From the NCBI RefSeq assembly GCF_009914755.1, contig NC_060933.1: 64,000 nucleotides of DNA, one strand, 5' to 3'. The translations under genes were made by a program, and so were the position numbers. The notes below the pieces were generated by a model, which did not search any database, was not told the origin of the DNA, and worked only from the letters and a program-made list of their open reading frames with translations. This document shows, piece after piece, positions 22,761 through 37,431 of this stretch. Within the stretch, counting starts at the first letter, position 1. Every line of letters starts with the position of its first letter. This stretch comes from the human T2T-CHM13v2.0 reference genome, Homo sapiens.

Positions 22761-24626
22761 CTTCACAAATTCATTCCAGGGCATCCTTCATTCTTCACCT
22801 GATTGGAAAAGTGATTCTATGTCCAACGTGAGTAGAGAAGGGGCTCCAACCCAAGGACGTGGTATCTGTTTGAGAAGAAGGGAGGAAAGGTGGGAAATTA
22901 GCAAGCATAAGGTTTCAGTGGAAATTATGTCACTCTCTTCCTGCCCCAGTCCCCATGGCACTGTAAATGTGAAAGCAGCCCCAGCCCAAGCCTAAAGGAA
23001 GAATAATCTATTATTTATGAATGTAAGCAGTGAAGCCATGGAGCACTTAAAGCACAGATACTGGAAGCAAAATGCCTGGATTTGACTCCCAGCTCTAAAG
23101 GTTACTAACTGTGCCACCACAGATAAATTGTTTAACCCCTTTTTTGCTTCAGTTTCCTAATTGGTAAAGGGAAATAATAATAATAACAATAAGAAGAAGA
23201 TAAAGGAGGAGGAGCAGGAGAAGGAAGATGAGCAGCAAGATGTCGGACTAGAAGGCTCCACCTATCATCACCCATCCAAGGACACCAAGTTAATAACTAT
23301 CTATACAGAAAAAACACCTTCATAAGAACCAAAAATCAGGTGAGCCCTCATAGTACCTGGTTTTAACTCCATATCACAGTACAAGATATAAATAGAAACA
23401 ACAAAAAGTTAAAAATCAGGGAAACAAAGTTATGGCATAGAGTTCGTATTTTTTATTTTTTGCTTGAATACGCAAACAGTGTTATGTTGTTATGAGGTTA
23501 AAATAATGGGTTATAAGATAGTATTTGTAAGCTTCATGGTAATCTCAAACCAAAAAACATACAACAGAGACACAAAAAAATAAAAAGCAAGAAACTAAAT
23601 CATATCACCAGAGAAAATCACCTTTCACTAAAGGAAGACAGAAAGGAAAGAAAGAAAGAAGAGAAGACCATAAAATAATCAGAAAACAAGCAACAAAATG
23701 GAAGGAGTAAGTTCTTACTTATCAATAACATCACTGAATGTAAATGGACTAAACTTTCTAATCAAAAGACACAGACTGACTGAATGGATGAAAAAACAAG
23801 ACCCATTGATCTGCTGCCTACAAGAAACACACTTCCCCCATAAAGACACATATAGGCTAAAAATAAAGGGATGGAAAAAGACATTCCATGCCAATGGAAA
23901 CCAGAAAACAGTGGGAGAAATTATACTTATATAAGACAAAATAGATTTCAAAACAAAAACCGTAAGAAGCTACAAAGAAGATCACTAATGATAAAGGGGT
24001 CAATTCAGCAAGAGGATATAACAATTTTAAATATATAAGTACCCAACACTGGATCACCCAGATACACAAAGCAAATGTTATTAGAGCTAAAAAGAGAGAT
24101 AGGCCCCAATACAACAATAGCTGGAGACTTTGAGACACTTGACTTTCAGCACTGGACAGATCTTCCAGACAGAAAATCAACAAAGAAACATTAGACTTAA
24201 TCTGCACTACAGACTGAATGGATCTAATAGATATTTACAGAACATTTCATCCAATGGCTTCAGATTACACATTCTTTTTCTTAGCACATGCATCATTCTC
24301 AAGGATAGGCCATATGTTAGGTCACAAAACAAGTCTTAAAACATTCAAAAAATTTTAAATAATGTCAAGCATTTTCTCTGACCACAGTGGAATAAAACTA
24401 GAGATTAATAACAAGAGAAATTTTGAAAACTATGCAAACACATGGAAATTAAACAATATGCTCCTGAATGACCAGTGGGTCAATGAAGAAATTAAGAAGG
24501 AAATCGAAAATTTTCTTGAAACAAATGATAATGGAAACACAACATACCAAAACCTATGAGATACAGCAAAACCAGGACTAAGAGGGAAGTTTATAGCTAT
24601 AAGTGCCTACATCAAAAAAGAGAAAA

Positions 24627-24892
24627 CGGTGGCTCACACCTGTAATCCCAGCACTTTGGGAGGCCGAGGCAGGTGAATCACAACATCAGGAGATCAAGAC
24701 CACGGTGAAACCCCATCTCTACTAAAAATACAAAAAATTAGCTGGGTGCAGTGGCAGGCACCTGTAGTCCCAGCTACTCAGGAGGCTGAAGCAGAAGAAT
24801 GGCATGAACCTGGAAGGTGGAGCTTGCAGTGAGCTGAGATTGTGCCACTGCACTCCAGCCTGGGCGACAGAGAGAGACTCCGTCTCAGAAAA
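24627..24892 (+). mobile_element. AluY with the 12-bp left-arm deletion (Yc3/Yd-type)
   Basis: agaccacggtgaaacccc deletion junction; Y-type ggcatgaacctggaaggtggagcttgcag; TSD aaaaaagagaaaa at 24614-24626 and 24893-24905. Confidence 0.88.
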
Positions 24893-27363
24893 AAAAAAGA
24901 GAAAAAAACCTTCAAATAAACAACCTGATGATGCATCTTAAGGAATGAGAAAAGCAAGAACAACCCAAACACAAAATTAGTAGAAGAAAAGAAATAATAA
25001 AGATCAGAGTGGAAATTAATGAAATCGAAGTGAAAAAATACAAAAGATCAATGAAACAAAAAGTTGGATTTTGAAAAGTTAAACAAAATTGACAAACCTT
25101 GAGCCAGACTAACTAAGAAAAAAGAGAGAAGATACAAATAAATAAAATCAGAAATGAAAAAGGAGACATTACAACTAATACAGCAGAAATTCAAAGGTTC
25201 ATTAGAAGTTACTATGAGCAACTATATGCCAGTAAATTAGAAAATCTAGAACAAATGGACACATTTCTGGACACATACAATCTACCAAGATTGAACCAGG
25301 AAGAAATCCAAAACCTGGACAAACCAGTAACAAGTAGTGAGATCAAAGCCATAACAAAAACTCTCCCAGTAAAGAAAAGCCCAGGACCCGATGACTTCAA
25401 TGATGAATTCTACAAAACATTTAAAGAAGAAATAATATCAATCCAACTCAAACTATTTCAAAAAAATAGAGGAGCAGGGAATACTTCCAAACTCATTCTA
25501 TGAGGCTAGCATTACCCCAATACCAAAACCAGATAAAGACACATCAACAAAAGGAAACTGCAGGCCAGAATCTCTGACAAATATTAATGCAATTTTTTGC
25601 AACAAAATAATAGCAAACCAAATTCAACAATACATTAGAAAGATCTTTCATCATGACCAAGTGGGATTTATCCCTGGGATGCAAGAATGGCTTAACATAT
25701 CAAATGCTTTGCGAAGAAAGTTCAACATATCAAATCAATCAATGTGATATATCAACAGAATGAAGGATAAAAACCATATGATTATTTCAATTGATACTGA
25801 AAAAGGATTTGATAAAATTCAACATTCCTTCATGATAAAAACCCTCAAAAAAACTGAGTATAGCAGGAGTATAAGTTAACATAATAAAAGCCATATACAA
25901 CAGACCCACAGCTAGTATCATACTGAATGGGGAAAAAACTGAAATCCCCTCCTCTAAGATCTGGAACATGACAAGGATGCCCACTGATATCACTGTTATC
26001 CAACACAGTACTGGAAGTTCTAGCTAGAGCAATCAGACAAGAGAAAGATATAAAGGGCATCCAAATTAGAAAAGAAGTGAAATCATCGTTGTTTGCAGAT
26101 GATATGATCCTATATTTGAAAAAATCTAAAGATTACACAAGAAACCTATTAAAAATGATGAACAAATTTAGTTGCAGGATATAAAATCAACATAACCAAA
26201 ATCAGTAGCATTTCTATATGCCAACAGTGAACAATCTGAAAAAGAAATAAAAAAGTTACCCCACTTACAATAGCCACACATAAAATTAAATACCTAGGAA
26301 TTAACTAAAGAAGTGCAAGATCTCGATAGCCATTCCAAGATGGCCGAATAGGAACAGCTAAGGTCTGCAGCTCCCAGCGTGGTCAAAACAGAAGAAGGTG
26401 CTTTCTGCATTTCCAACTGAGGTACCTGGTTCATCTCATTGGGGCTGGTTGGACAGTGAGTGCAGCCCACAGAGGGTGAGCCAAAGCAGGGCAGGGTATC
26501 GCCTCACCTGGGAAGTGCAAAAGGTCGGGGGATTTCCCTTTCCTAGCCAAGGGAAGCCGTGACAGACTGTACCTAGAAAATTGGGACACTGCCACCCAAA
26601 TACTGCACTTTTCCAATGGTCTTAGCAAACGGCACACCAGGAGATTATATCCTGTGCCTGGCTCGGCGGGTCCCATGCCCATAGAGCCTTGCTCACTGCT
26701 AGTGCAGCAGTCCAAGATCAAACTGCAAGGTGGCAGTCTGGCTGTGGGAGGGGCATCTGCAATTGCTGAGGCTTGAGTAGGTAAACAAAGCAGCTGGGAA
26801 GCTCAAACTGGGTAGAGTCCACCTCAGCTCAATGAGGCCTGCCTGCCTCTATAGACTCTACCTTTGCGGGCAGGGCATAGCTGAACAAAAGGCAGCAGAA
26901 ACTTCTGCAGACTTAAATGTCCCTGTCTGACAGCTCTGAAGAAAGCAGTGGTTCTCCCAGCATGGTGTTTGAGCTCTGAGAAAAGACAGACTGCCTCCTC
27001 AAGTGGGTCCCTGACCCCCATGTAGCCTAACTGGGAGACAACTCCCAGTAGGGGCCAACTGACACCTCATACAGCCGGGTGCCCCTCTGAGACGAAGCTT
27101 CCAGAGGAAGGATCAGAGAGCAATATTGGCTGTTCTGCAATATTTGCTGTTCTGCATCCTCTGCTGGTGATACCAAGGCAAACAGGGTCTGGAGTGGACC
27201 TCCAGCAAACTCCAACAGACCTGCAGCTGAGGAACCTGACTGTTAGAAGGAAAACTAACACACAGAAAGGAATAGCATCAACATCAACAAAAAAGACATC
27301 CACACCAGAACCCCATCTGTAGGTCACCATCATCAAAGACCAAAGGTAGATAAAACCACAAAG

Positions 27364-28366
27364 ATGGGGAGAAACCAGAGCAGAAAAGCCGAAAATTCTA
27401 AAAACCAGAGTGCCTCTTCTCCTCCAAAGGATCACAGCTCCTCACCAGCAACAGAACAAAGCTGGACTGAGAATGACTTTGACCAGCTGACAGAAGTAGG
27501 CTTCAAAAGGTCGGTAATAACAGACTTCTCCGAGCTAAAGGAGGATGTTCGAACCCATTGCAAGGCAGCTAAAAACCTTGAAAAAAGATTACACGAATGG
27601 CTAACTAGAATAAACAGTGCAGAGAAGACCTTAAATGACCTGATGGACTGAAAACCATGGCACAAGAACTATGTGATGCATGCACAAGCTTCAGCGGAAT
27701 ACAGAGTATCAGTGATTGGAGATCAAATGAATGAAATGAAGCAAGAAGAGAAGTTTAGAGACAAAAGAGTAAAAAGAAATAAAACCTCCAAGAAATATGG
27801 GACTATGAGTAAAGACCACATCTACGCTTGATTGGTGTACCTGAAAGTGACGGGGAGAATGGAATTAAGCTGGAAAACACTCTTCAGGATATTATCCAGG
27901 AGAATGTCCCCAACCTATCAAGGCAGGCCAACATTCAAATTCAGGAAATACAGAGAACACCACAAAGATACTCCTCGAGAAAAGCAACCCCAAGACACAT
28001 AATTGTCAGATTTACCAAGGTTGAAAAGAGGAAAAAATGCTAAGGGCAGCCAGGGAGAAAGGTCGGGTTACCCACAAAGGGAAGCCCATCAGACTAACAG
28101 CTGATCTCTCAGCAGAAACTCTACAAGCCAGAATAGAGTGGGGGCCAATATTCAACATTCTCAGAGAAAAGAATTTTCAACCCAGAATTTCATATCCAGC
28201 CAAATTAAGCTTCATAAGTGAAGGAGAAATAAAATCCTTTACAGACAAACAAATGCTGAGAGATTTTGTCACCACCAGGCCTGCCTTACAGGAGCCCCTG
28301 AAGGAAGCACTAAACATGGAAAGGAACAACTGGAACCAGCCACTGCAAAAACATGCCAAATTGTAA
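27364..28366 (+). pseudogene. Disrupted L1 ORF1
   Basis: Split over frames 27364-27651, 27828-28043 and 28037-28366 by frameshifts. Confidence 0.9.
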
Positions 28367-28429
28367 AGACCATCGATGCTAGGAAGAAACTGCATCAACT
28401 AACGGGCAAAATAACCAGCTACCATCATA

Positions 28430-32242
<3,813 letters not shown>

Positions 32243-32454
32243 ACAATGAGAACACATGGACACAGGAAGGGGAACATCACACACCGGGGACTGTTGTGGA
32301 GTGGGGGGAGTGGGGAGGGATAGCATTAGGAGATATACCTAATGCTAAATGACGAGTTAATGGGTGCAGCACACCAACATGGCACATGTGTACATATGTA
32401 ACAAACCTGCATGTGGTGCACATGTACCCTAAAACTTAAAGTATAAAAAAAAAA

Positions 32455-34110
<1,656 letters not shown>

Positions 34111-36133
34111 AAAGAAGTGAACGATCTCTATAATGAAAACTATAAAATATAGATGAAAGAAATTAAAGTGAACAAAAAATGGAAAAATATTCAATGTTTA
34201 TGGATTGAAAGAATCAATATTGTTAAAATGTCCATACTACCAAAGCAATCTACAGATTCAATGCAATCCCTATCAAAATACCAATGACATTCTTCACAGA
34301 AATAGAACAAAAATCCTAAAATTTATATGGAACCACAAAAAACAAAAAACAAACAAACAAAAAAGACAGAATAGCCAAACCCATCCTAAGAAAAGAGAAA
34401 AAAACTGGGGGAATCACATTACCTGGCTTCAAATTACTACATAGCTATAGTACTGTAGTACTACTTTTGGTTACTGCAGGGCTACAGTAACCAAAACAGC
34501 ATGGTACTGGCATAAAAATAGACACATAGACCAATGGAACAGAATAGAGAATCCAGAAACAAATCCATACACCTACAGTGAACACATTTTCGACAAAGGT
34601 GCCAAGAACATACACTGAAGAAAAGACAGTCTCTTCAATAAATGGTGCTGGGAAACCTGGATATCCATATGCAGAAGAATAAAACTACTGCAGAAATAGA
34701 TGAGAGACCCGTATCTCTCATCACATGCAAAAATCAAATCAAAATGGATTAAAGACTTAATCTAAGACCTGAAAGTATGAAACTACTACAAGAAAACATT
34801 GTGGAAAATCTCCAGGACATTGGTCTGGGCAAAGATTTCTTAAGCAATACCCCACAAGCATAGGCAACCAAAGTTAAAAGGGGGCAAATGGGATTATATC
34901 AAGTTTAAAAGCTTCTGCAGAGCAAAGAAACAATAACAAAGTGAAGAGACAACATACAGAATGGGAGAAAATATTTACAAACTGTCCATCTGATAAGGGA
35001 TTAATAAAAAGAATATATAAGGAGCCCAAACAACTCTTTAGGAAAAAATCTAATCCAATCAAAAAATGGGCAAAAGATTTGAATAGATATTTCTCAAAAG
35101 ACATACAAATGGCAAACAGGCATATGAAAAGGTGTTCAACATCACTGATCATCAGAGGAATGCAAATCAAAACAACAATGAGATATCATCTCACCCCAGT
35201 TAAAATGACTTTTATCCAAAAGACAGGCAATAACAAATGCTGGTGAGAATGTGAAGAAAAGGGAACCCTTATATGCTGTTGGTGGGAATGTAAATTAGTA
35301 CAACTACTATGGAGAAGAGTTTGGAAGTTCCTCAAAAAACTAAAAATAGAGCTAGCATACGCTCCAGCAATCTTACTGCTGGGTATATACCCAGAAGAAA
35401 GGAAATCAGCATATTGAAGACACATCTGCACTCCTGTGTTTGTTGCAGCTTTTACAATAGCTAAGATTTGGAAGCAATCTAAATGTCCATCAACAGATGA
35501 ATGGATAAGGAAAATGTGATACATATCCACAATAGAGTACTTAAGCCATAAAAAAGAATGAAAGCCTGTCATTTGCAACAACATGAATGGAACTGGAGGT
35601 CATTATGTTAAGTGAAATAAGCCAGAAACAGAAAGACAAATATCACATGTTCTCACTTATTTGTGGGACCTAAAAATGAAAACAATTGAACTCAAGGACA
35701 GAGAGAGTAGAAGGATGGTTACCAGAGGCTGGGAAGGGTAGCAGGGTGCTGGGGAGGAAGGGAGATGGTTAATGGGTACAAAAAAATAAAAAGAATGAAT
35801 GAGACTTACCAGGTTGATAGCCCAACAGGGTTACTATAATCAATAATAACTTATTTGTACAGTTTTAAATAATTAAAGGAGTTATTGGATTGTTTGTAAC
35901 TCAAAGGATAAAATATTTGCAATCACCCCATTCTCCATGTGTGCTTATTTCATATTCTATGCCTATATCTAAACATTCATGTGCCCCATAAATATATATA
36001 CCTACTACGTACCCACAAAAATTAAAATAATAATTATATATATAGAATAAATAGGATTCATGAGAAAGAAATAAGTTATTATACTGGCAGCATCTCGTGC
36101 CTAGCACATAGTATGCACTAGAAAAGTACTTGC

Positions 36134-37182: not shown

Positions 37183-37431
37183 CTCACTCATAGGTGGGAA
37201 CTGAACAATGAGAACACATGGACACAGGAAGGGGAACATCACACACCGGGGCCTGTTGTGGGGTGGGGGGAGGGGGGAGGGATAGCATTAAGAGATACAC
37301 CTAATATTAAATGACGAGTTAATGGGTGCAGCACACCAACATGGCACATGTATACATACGTAACTAACCTGCACGTTGTGCACATGTACCCTAAAACTTA
37401 AAGTATAATAATAAAAAAAAAAAAAAAAAAA
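37183..37431 (+). mobile_element. Short L1PA3/4-like 3' end
   Basis: ctcactcataggtgggaa...aaatgacgagttaatgggtgcagcacaccaacatgg...aataaa and A19; no TSD found. Confidence 0.93.

What the first reader, a model, noticed from the sequence alone, without database searches (positions are those of the whole stretch)
26307..34128. L1-mediated 3' transduction of ~1.65 kb of foreign DNA, sealed inside an older L1
Seen: the host L1MA ORF2 breaks at aaagaagtgcaagatctc (26307-26324) and resumes at aaagaagtgaacgatctc (34111-34128), an 18-bp TSD with 2 mismatches. Between them are a full-length L1PA5-like element and non-L1 sequence 32455-34106. The L1's own end reads aaagtat-A10 with no AATAAA, whereas the extra segment ends AATAAA (34089-34094), 12 nt, then an A run and the TSD. 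Known: L1s read through weak poly(A) signals and carry 3' flanks to new sites. Inference: the whole ~7.8 kb was one RNA, so the segment copies a source locus elsewhere and tags the parent element. The cargo holds an AluS (a family generally older than L1PA5), a possible L2-like remnant (~33270-33400) and an AT-rich end like a 3'UTR. An earlier AATAAA at 33635 was bypassed.
Basis: partly seen in the sequence, partly recalled or inferred. Interest (0 to 1): 0.82.

Follow-up and report, generated by a model that had tools for sequence, protein, structure and literature searches.

The report
L1 copy carrying chromosome-2 flanking DNA
An old, dead full-length L1 jumping gene on chromosome 9 carried along about 1.65 kb of DNA from just upstream of the BBS5 gene on chromosome 2, which is an ordinary and well-understood side effect of L1 copying.

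Summary

- **Target-site duplication.** The 18-mers at 26307-26324 and 34111-34128 match 16/18, against a background of about 1e-6 per pair. Both cover the same 18 nt of ORF2 in one collinear older L1.
- **What lies between them.** A full-length but broken L1 (26325-32454) is followed by 1,652 bp of non-L1 DNA (32455-34106).
- **Source of the cargo.** It has exactly one other copy in the assembly, on contig C2 at 169945819→169940374 (minus strand). That copy is contiguous genomic DNA including the same Alu, with 121/1592 mismatches (7.6%).
- **3′ end.** The cargo stops 12 nt after an AATAAA that is conserved at the source.
- **5′ end.** Its first base abuts an L1-endonuclease-like TT|AAGAA site on C2.
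- **Missing progenitor.** That C2 site is empty. No young L1 in the right orientation lies within 114 kb upstream, so the progenitor L1 is not in this assembly and was probably never fixed.
- **Gene context.** The source lies about 13 kb upstream of BBS5 on the opposite strand, so it is not the BBS5 3′UTR.
- **Siblings.** No sibling transductions were found.
- **Side note.** The Alu tail at the source is now a 3.8-kb TA-rich array, against about 50 bp in the copy.

This is a clean instance of a well-known mechanism, so interest is low.

The parts
23672..26306 (+). Left part of the older host L1 (ORF2 region)
   Evidence: 68-70% identical to inner L1 positions 28408-30738, same strand
26307..26324 (+). 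5' copy of the 18-bp target-site duplication
   Evidence: 16/18 match to 34111-34128; maps to the same ORF2 bases as the 3' copy
26325..26334 (+). 10 non-L1 filler bases at the 5' junction
   Evidence: a reference full-length L1 on C2 has a different 10-nt start before CCAAGATGG; not found in the C2 source flank
26335..32444 (+). Body of the transducing full-length L1 (5'UTR, broken ORF1 and ORF2, 3'UTR)
   Evidence: 90.5% identical over 6,183 aligned columns to a full-length L1 on C2. Pfam Transposase_22/Tnp_22_dsRBD and RVT_1; only fragments of ORFs remain (109, 558, 286 aa)
32445..32454 (+). Internal A10 tract: remnant of the progenitor L1's tail (and possibly of the source AAGAA)
32455..32846 (+). 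Transduced unique DNA, 5' part
   Evidence: matches C2:169945819-169945418 (minus), 33/387 mismatches
32847..33130 (+). Alu carried within the cargo
   Evidence: same Alu at the same place on C2 (169945417-169945135), 25/281 mismatches
33131..33179 (+). AT-rich remnant of the Alu tail; corresponds to a 3.8-kb TA-rich array at the source
   Evidence: C2:169941310-169945131, period 2/29, 97% A+T
33180..34106 (+). Transduced unique DNA, 3' part, ending at the used poly(A) site (AATAAA 34089-34094)
   Evidence: matches C2:169941307-169940374 (minus), 63/924 mismatches; hexamer conserved on C2
34107..34110 (+). Short terminal poly(A) (4 A, up to 7 if the first AAA of the TSD is counted)
   Evidence: C2 reads AGCATGAAAAATGC here
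34111..34128 (+). 3' copy of the 18-bp target-site duplication
34129..35684 (+). Right part of the older host L1
   Evidence: 34114-35684 aligns to inner L1 30752-32254 at 68.9%

Best explanation
This is a classical L1 3' transduction.

1. A full-length L1 once sat on the minus strand of contig C2 (chromosome 2), inserted at ...GCTGTT|AAGAATTGTG..., about 13 kb upstream of BBS5 (inferred).
2. Its own poly(A) signal was weak or absent. Transcription ran on through 1.65 kb of flank: an Alu, its A/T-rich tail and three other poly(A) hexamers.
3. The RNA was cleaved 12 nt after the fourth hexamer, an AATAAA.
4. The single ~7.8-kb RNA was reverse-transcribed by target-primed reverse transcription at an ACT|AAAG site inside the ORF2 of an older L1 on chromosome 9. 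This gave an 18-bp target-site duplication.
5. The event is roughly 18-34 million years old. That range comes from K2P 0.081 between copy and source, using neutral rates I recall.
6. The progenitor L1 is not in this assembly. Most likely it was a segregating allele that was never fixed.

Shown directly: the duplication, the host collinearity, the unique source, the exact boundaries, and the empty source site. Inferred: the former presence of the progenitor, the read-through, and the date.
For: 1. **One TSD pair encloses L1 plus cargo.** The match is 16/18, against a background of 1e-6 per pair, and both copies map to the same ORF2 bases of one collinear host L1.
2. **No TSD around the L1 alone.** No exact word of >=7 nt is shared between 26285-26340 and 32441-32500.
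3. **Unique, unspliced source.** The cargo matches one other locus only (2 of 2 candidates scored are the window itself and C2). It is contiguous genomic DNA including the Alu, with 121/1592 mismatches.
4. **3' boundary is an RNA-processing site.** AATAAA is conserved on C2, homology ends 12 nt later at CA, and C2 continues with the T-rich TGCTTTCTGG.
5. **5' boundary is an endonuclease-like site.** It falls at TT|AAGAA on C2. TT|AARA occupies 0.21% of positions in 16,189 nt of local C2 DNA.
6. **Weak L1 signal.** The L1 lacks AATAAA/ATTAAA in its last 120 nt, whereas 2 of 2 comparison L1 ends have it.
7. **Consistent ages.** The 2/18 TSD mismatches fit the 7.6% cargo divergence.
8. **Known mechanism and precedent.** Both are described in PMC9311842 (passages seen), including progenitors absent from the reference genome.
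Against: - No progenitor L1 is present at the source, and none of the right age and orientation lies within 114 kb upstream. The parent-offspring link therefore cannot be shown directly.
- The G of the source AAGAA is not visible in the window's A10 tract. This needs one substitution, or a slightly different junction.
- The A10 could equally be the usual AATAATAAAA with two T>A changes. In that case the L1 once had its AATAAA and almost no tail separated it from the cargo.
- The terminal poly(A) is very short (4-7 A).
- No sibling insertions carry the same tag.
- The orthologous pre-insertion site in an outgroup was not examined.
Confidence: 0.87

Rival explanations
1. Template-switch chimera. 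Reverse transcription began on a polyadenylated chromosome-2 transcript. At the A-rich patch AAGAA it jumped to the poly(A) end of a separate full-length L1 RNA, giving L1-A10-cargo in one integration without any L1 ever having sat on chromosome 2.
For: - It produces the same final structure: one TSD pair, an internal A tract, and cargo ending at a poly(A) site.
- The source site is empty.
- The junction lies at an A-rich patch that could give microhomology with a poly(A) tail. AAGAA-like 5-mers occupy 1.2% of local positions.
Against: - It needs an independent minus-strand transcript upstream of BBS5, for which I have no evidence (only places the gene).
- It needs the L1 RNA to have been polyadenylated at its own end, although that end lacks AATAAA/ATTAAA.
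- The TT preceding AAGAA, which makes it an endonuclease-type site, is expected in only about 1 in 6 A-rich patches (0.21% vs 1.2%).
- From my recall of the literature, known L1-mediated chimeras have small RNAs (U6 and the like) as the 5' partner, not full-length L1.
Confidence: 0.06
2. Two separate events. The L1 inserted first with the 18-bp TSD. Later a 1.65-kb retrocopy of a chromosome-2 RNA, or an orphan transduction stripped of its L1, inserted into the L1's poly(A) tail, so that its own TSD consists of A's only and cannot be seen.
For: - A runs flank the cargo on both sides (A10 at 32445-32454, A7 at 34107-34113).
- Poly(A) tails are known favoured targets for L1-mediated insertion (recalled).
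Against: - The cargo's 5' end would have to coincide by chance with an endonuclease-type site at the source (0.21% of positions).
- The insertion would have to hit a tail of some tens of bases.
- The 7 A's at the 3' side would have to hold the retrocopy's tail, its TSD and the rest of the L1 tail.
- TSD divergence (2/18) and cargo divergence (7.6%) give no sign of two ages.
Confidence: 0.04
3. The cargo was resident DNA at the chromosome-9 site before the L1 arrived, and the chromosome-2 copy is the derived one.
For: None found.
Against: - The host L1 ORF2 is continuous across the whole 7.8 kb with one duplicated 18-mer.
- The L1 alone has no TSD.
- On C2 the homologous segment continues into unique DNA on both sides, without TSD or poly(A) tail.
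- On chromosome 9 the segment ends at a poly(A) site followed by A's.
Confidence: 0.01

Closest known systems
L1 3' transduction (Moran et al. 1999; Goodier et al. 2000; Pickeral et al. 2000; Szak et al. 2003). These are cited in the reference list of PMC9311842, which I saw; the originals were not held.
   Same: - L1 in sense orientation followed by unique non-L1 DNA.
- The TSD encloses both.
- The cargo ends with AATAAA plus A's.
- The cargo maps to one other locus as unspliced genomic DNA.
- The L1's own signal is weak.
   Different: Nothing in kind. The particulars are that the event is old (about 8% copy-source divergence), the transduction is long (1.65 kb, passing three other hexamers and an Alu), and it is nested in an older L1.
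Transductions whose progenitor is absent from the reference (non-reference or polymorphic source L1s, e.g. the chr6:13190801 source described in PMC9311842, passages seen)
   Same: The source locus is identified by the transduced tag, although the assembly has no L1 there.
   Different: Those sources are young polymorphic L1HS elements still present in some people. Here the event is tens of millions of years old, so the progenitor allele is presumably extinct in humans, and the chromosome-9 copy is its only trace in this assembly.
CHM13 catalogue of TE-driven transductions (Hoyt et al., bioRxiv 10.1101/2021.07.12.451456; passages seen)
   Same: Same assembly and the same class of event. The catalogue reports 183 highest-confidence L1 3' transductions found with a TSDfinder-based pipeline.
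   Different: The text speaks of 'identified parents', so an event with an empty source may sit in a lower confidence bin or be absent.
L1-mediated template-switch chimeric retrocopies (U6-L1 and similar; recalled, no paper read here)
   Same: Two RNAs' worth of sequence inside one TSD pair.
   Different: In those the L1 or mRNA is the 3' partner and a small RNA is the 5' partner. Here the 5' partner is a full-length L1, and the junction at the source is an endonuclease-type site.

Membership tests
L1 3' transduction | Non-L1 DNA directly follows the 3' end of a sense-oriented L1 | tested here: met
   L1 ends ...AAAGTAT-A10 at 32454 and unique DNA starts at 32455. L1 identity comes from Pfam ORF1/RT hits and 90.5% identity to another full-length L1.
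L1 3' transduction | Target-site duplication flanks L1 plus extra DNA, not the L1 alone | tested here: met
   16/18 TSD at 26307/34111, with both copies on the same host ORF2 bases. No shared word >=7 nt around the L1 alone.
L1 3' transduction | Extra DNA ends with a poly(A) signal and A tail just before the 3' TSD | tested here: met
   AATAAA at 34089-34094, then 12 nt, then A's at 34107-34113 merging into the TSD. The tail is short (4-7 A).
L1 3' transduction | Extra DNA is an unspliced copy of a unique locus elsewhere, with homology ending at the L1 junction and at the poly(A) site | tested here: met
   The only second locus is C2:169945819→169940374 (minus), collinear including the Alu. 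The only length difference is a TA-rich array.
L1 3' transduction | Corroborating, not defining: a progenitor L1 still sits immediately upstream of the segment at the source | tested here: not met
   C2 reads GCTGTTAAGAATTGTG across the junction. There is no young same-orientation L1 in 114 kb upstream. Sources absent from a reference are documented (PMC9311842), so this does not exclude membership.
L1 3' transduction | Source junction compatible with an L1 endonuclease target (TT|AAAA-like) | tested here: met
   TT|AAGAA lies at the exact homology boundary. The motif TT|AARA occurs at 0.21% of local positions.
L1 3' transduction | An outgroup shows the uninterrupted target with one copy of the TSD | not testable with these tools
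   No primate genomes are held. states that the assembly has no relatives here.
Processed (spliced) retrocopy of an mRNA | Introns removed relative to the source gene; the source is an annotated transcript | tested here: not met
   The 3.8 kb missing relative to C2 is a TA-rich tandem array, not an intron. The source lies ~13 kb upstream of BBS5 on the opposite strand. Non-coding transcripts at the source could not be checked.
Template-switch chimeric retrocopy | Two independent RNAs joined during reverse transcription, with no L1 ever present at the source of the 3' partner | tested here: inconclusive
   The empty source is compatible with it. The endonuclease-type junction and the missing L1 poly(A) signal argue against it.

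The most novel reading that the evidence does not exclude
The chromosome-9 insertion is the only surviving record of an extinct progenitor L1 that once sat ~13 kb upstream of BBS5. It is also a dated snapshot of that locus. On this reading the Alu tail at the source was only a few tens of bases of impure TA repeat when the RNA was made, and it has since grown into the present 3.8-kb TA-rich array. That would give a minimum growth of ~3.7 kb in roughly 18-34 million years for a long AT-rich array seeded by an Alu tail.
Probability: 0.45. Interest if true: 0.3.

Novelty: new member of a known kind. Interest (0 to 1): 0.2.

Why it matters
It matters little beyond bookkeeping. The mechanism has been known since 1999, and hundreds of such events are catalogued, including in this very assembly.

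The instance is a tidy textbook case with every junction readable, and it has two small uses:
- It marks where a now-lost L1 progenitor once sat on chromosome 2.
- It preserves an old copy of a locus whose Alu tail is today a 3.8-kb TA-rich array, so comparison with outgroup primates could date that expansion.

It moves no exon or known regulatory element. In the window it sits inside an older L1, in an intron of a predicted lncRNA.

Tried and rejected
1. **Intron hypothesis.** The two cargo halves are 338 bp apart in the window but ~4.1 kb apart on C2, which suggested splicing. I rejected this because the extra DNA is a TA-rich tandem array of 3,822 bp growing from the Alu tail.
2. **Nearby L1 as source.** The full-length L1 at C2:169928790-169934926 is on the opposite strand and on the wrong side of the cargo, so it is rejected.
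3. **Displaced source L1 joined by splicing.** C2 has an AG just before the cargo start. I rejected this because the 114 kb upstream holds only old L1 fragments (<=73% identity) in that orientation.
4. **5' transduction.** The 10-nt filler at 26325-26334 is not found in the 700 nt of C2 flank searched, so its origin is left unexplained.
5. **Subfamily naming by published primers** (PMC12432230 Table 1). The L1PA5 5'UTR primer fits with 1 mismatch against 4 for the L1HS primer at the same site. Other primers give mixed results (0-5 mismatches). This is consistent with an older L1PA but not diagnostic.
6. **Gene context by a six-frame ORF list.** It produced 967 ORFs, too bulky to use, so I replaced it with a Pfam BBS5 search of the assembly.
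8. **Classic papers.** Szak 2003, Pickeral 2000 and Hoyt 2022 (PMC version) were not held. I used the bioRxiv version of Hoyt et al. and PMC9311842 instead.
9. **TA-array ancestry.** The non-TA island in the window's short array (33140-33153) has no word of >=8 nt in the C2 array, so the ancestral state of the array cannot be decided here.
Full report
**Observation.** At their offset of 7,804 bp this is the only one of 56,179 18-mer pairs in the window that reaches 16/18. At 400 other offsets only 22 of 21,740,960 pairs do, about 1e-6 per pair. I used the young L1 inside the insertion as a ruler for the older L1 around it. Host 23672-26301 aligns to inner-L1 28408-30738 and host 34114-35684 to inner-L1 30752-32254, on the same strand at 68-70% identity. 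A three-way alignment shows both host ends covering the very same 18 bases of ORF2. The flanks are therefore one older L1 with one duplicated target site, not two insertions.

**The insert.**
- *L1 body.* From 26325 to 32454 lies a full-length L1. It is 90.5% identical over 6,183 aligned columns to another full-length L1 on contig C2. It gives Pfam hits to the L1 ORF1 domains and to RVT_1. Its reading frames are broken, with the longest ATG ORFs at 109, 558 and 286 aa.
- *5' start.* Its first 10 bases (26325-26334) are not L1. A reference copy has a different 10-nt start before the shared CCAAGATGG.
- *3' end.* It ends AAAGTAT plus ten A's (32445-32454). It has no AATAAA or ATTAAA in its last 120 nt, whereas both comparison L1 ends read GTATAATAATAAAA. 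Two T>A changes could turn AATAATAAAA into ten A's, so the lack of a signal may be secondary and I count it only as suggestive.
- *Non-L1 segment.* From 32455 to 34106 lies non-L1 DNA. It contains an Alu (32847-33130) and a ~50-bp AT-rich tail remnant. It has four poly(A) hexamers: ATTAAA at 33254, AATAAA at 33635, ATTAAA at 33832 and AATAAA at 34089. After the last hexamer come 12 nt and then seven A's that run into the TSD.
- *No TSD around the L1 alone.* No exact word of 7 nt or more is shared between 26285-26340 and 32441-32500.

**The source.**
- *One locus.* The window's own assembly could be searched. The 3' part of the cargo (33185-34106) finds two places, itself and C2:169940374-169941302 on the minus strand at 92%. 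The 5' part (32457-32846) finds itself and C2:169945418-169945817 on the minus strand at 87%. In both searches all candidates (2 of 2) were scored.
- *The Alu was carried along.* Local BLAST shows that window 32450-33178, which includes the Alu, is collinear with C2:169945824-169945079. The Alu was therefore already at the source.
- *Divergence.* Over 1,592 aligned bases there are 121 mismatches (7.6%, K2P 0.081, 18 of them in CpG context). The parts are similar: 33/387, 25/281 and 63/924.
- *No intron.* The extra ~3.8 kb on C2 is a TA-rich tandem array (L004 1310-5131, periods 2 and 29, 97% A+T) sitting at the Alu tail.
- *Hexamers.* All four poly(A) hexamers are conserved on C2.

**The boundaries at the source.**
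- *3' side.* C2 reads ACTAATAAAAAATAAATAGCATGAAAAATGCTTTCTGG. Homology to the window ends at the CA, 12 nt past the hexamer, and C2 continues with a T-rich stretch. That is what a cleavage and polyadenylation site looks like, so the cargo's 3' end was made on RNA.
- *5' side.* C2 reads GCTGTTAAGAATTGTGTCCC, and the window reads A10 followed by TTGTGTCCC. The boundary thus falls at TT|AAGAA, the kind of site the L1 endonuclease nicks (TT|AAAA consensus, from established knowledge). TT|AARA occupies 0.21% of 16,189 local positions.
- *No L1 there.* The 114 kb upstream (C2:169945825-170060000) holds, in the cargo's orientation, only two old L1 fragments at <=73% identity. The one young full-length L1 nearby (C2:169928790-169934926) is on the other strand and on the downstream side, so it cannot be the parent.

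**Context.**
- Pfam family PF07289 (BBS5) matches six exons at C2:169958850-169981813 on the plus strand. The source therefore lies about 13 kb upstream of the first matching BBS5 exon, on the opposite strand, and is not that gene's 3'UTR. Whether a non-coding transcript ends there I could not check.
- The first 34 bases of the cargo occur, with up to 3 mismatches, only at the two loci. Together this means no sibling insertions carry the tag in this assembly.

**Mechanism.**
- *Best reading.* This is a classical 3' transduction. A progenitor L1 at TT|AAGAA on chromosome 2 was transcribed past its weak or missing signal. Transcription ran through the Alu and three hexamers to the fourth. The whole ~7.8-kb RNA then integrated by target-primed reverse transcription at ACT|AAAG in an older L1 on chromosome 9.
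- *Missing progenitor.* It is most simply explained as an allele that never reached fixation. Sources missing from a reference genome are documented for young elements (PMC9311842, passages seen).
- *Date.* With K2P 0.081 between copy and source, about 0.04 per lineage, and neutral rates I recall of roughly 1.2-2.2e-9 per site per year, the event is about 18-34 million years old. That overlaps the ages quoted for L1PA6 to L1PA3 (26.8 to 7.6 My; PMC4083085, passages seen).
- *Subfamily.* I could not name it. Published subfamily-selective primers give a weak lean away from the youngest families: the L1PA5 5'UTR primer fits with 1 mismatch, against 4 for the L1HS primer at the same site, and the other primers are mixed.

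**Rivals.**
- *Template-switch chimera.* A chromosome-2 RNA joined to a separate L1 RNA would give the same structure and fits the empty source. It needs an unevidenced transcript and an L1 RNA polyadenylated at an end without a signal, and it explains the TT before AAGAA only by chance (about 1 in 6 A-rich patches).
- *Later retrocopy insertion into the L1 tail.* This would hide its TSD in A's. It requires the cargo's 5' end to hit an endonuclease-type site by chance (0.21%), and a 7-A stretch to hold a tail, a TSD and the remainder of the L1 tail.
- *Resident DNA.* This is contradicted.

**Comparison with what is known.**
- The mechanism and its criteria are long established. I saw the references to Moran 1999, Goodier 2000, Pickeral 2000 and Szak 2003 in PMC9311842, but the originals were not held.
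- Hoyt et al. catalogued 183 highest-confidence L1 3' transductions in CHM13 (bioRxiv 10.1101/2021.07.12.451456, passages seen). Their table is in closed supplements, so I cannot say whether this event is listed.
- My literature searches were not aimed at this locus, and I make no claim that it is unpublished.

**Verdict.** It is a new documented instance of a well-known kind and of low interest. The modest extras are the extinct progenitor upstream of BBS5 and the contrast between a ~50-bp AT-rich Alu tail in the old copy and a 3.8-kb TA-rich array at the source today. The direction of that change (growth at the source, or loss in the copy) needs outgroup genomes.

Noticed in passing
L004:1310-5131 (G000:C2:169941310-169945131); counterpart window 33131-33179: At the source locus the Alu tail is a 3.8-kb TA-rich tandem array (periods 2 and 29, 97% A+T). 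The retro-copied version made some 18-34 My ago has only ~50 bp, with a non-TA island (33140-33153) that has no word of >=8 nt in the C2 array. This is either a large post-transduction expansion at the source or a loss in the copy.
   Followed up: partly
window 26325-26334: Ten non-L1 bases sit between the 5' TSD and the L1, which then starts at CCAAGATGG. They replace the first ~10 nt seen in a reference full-length L1 and were not found in the C2 source flank. Their origin is unexplained (filler at the 5' junction, or an upstream start).
   Followed up: partly
window 37183-37416: A separate 234-bp 5'-truncated L1 3' end, 93.6% identical to the transducing L1's 3' end. It has an intact GTATAATAATAAAA and a long A tail, and lies just beyond the host L1.
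   Followed up: no
L018/L003 (G000:C2:169928790-169934926, plus strand): A full-length L1, 90.5% identical to the window's L1, lies ~5.4 kb from the source segment but on the opposite strand. It is of similar age but cannot be the parent.
   Followed up: yes
G000:C2:169958850-169981813: Six exon-sized matches to Pfam BBL5 (BBS5) on the plus strand fix the source of the cargo at ~13 kb upstream of that gene. Two matches overlap in profile positions (77-124 and 87-168), and some carry stops that probably reflect intron read-through.
   Followed up: no
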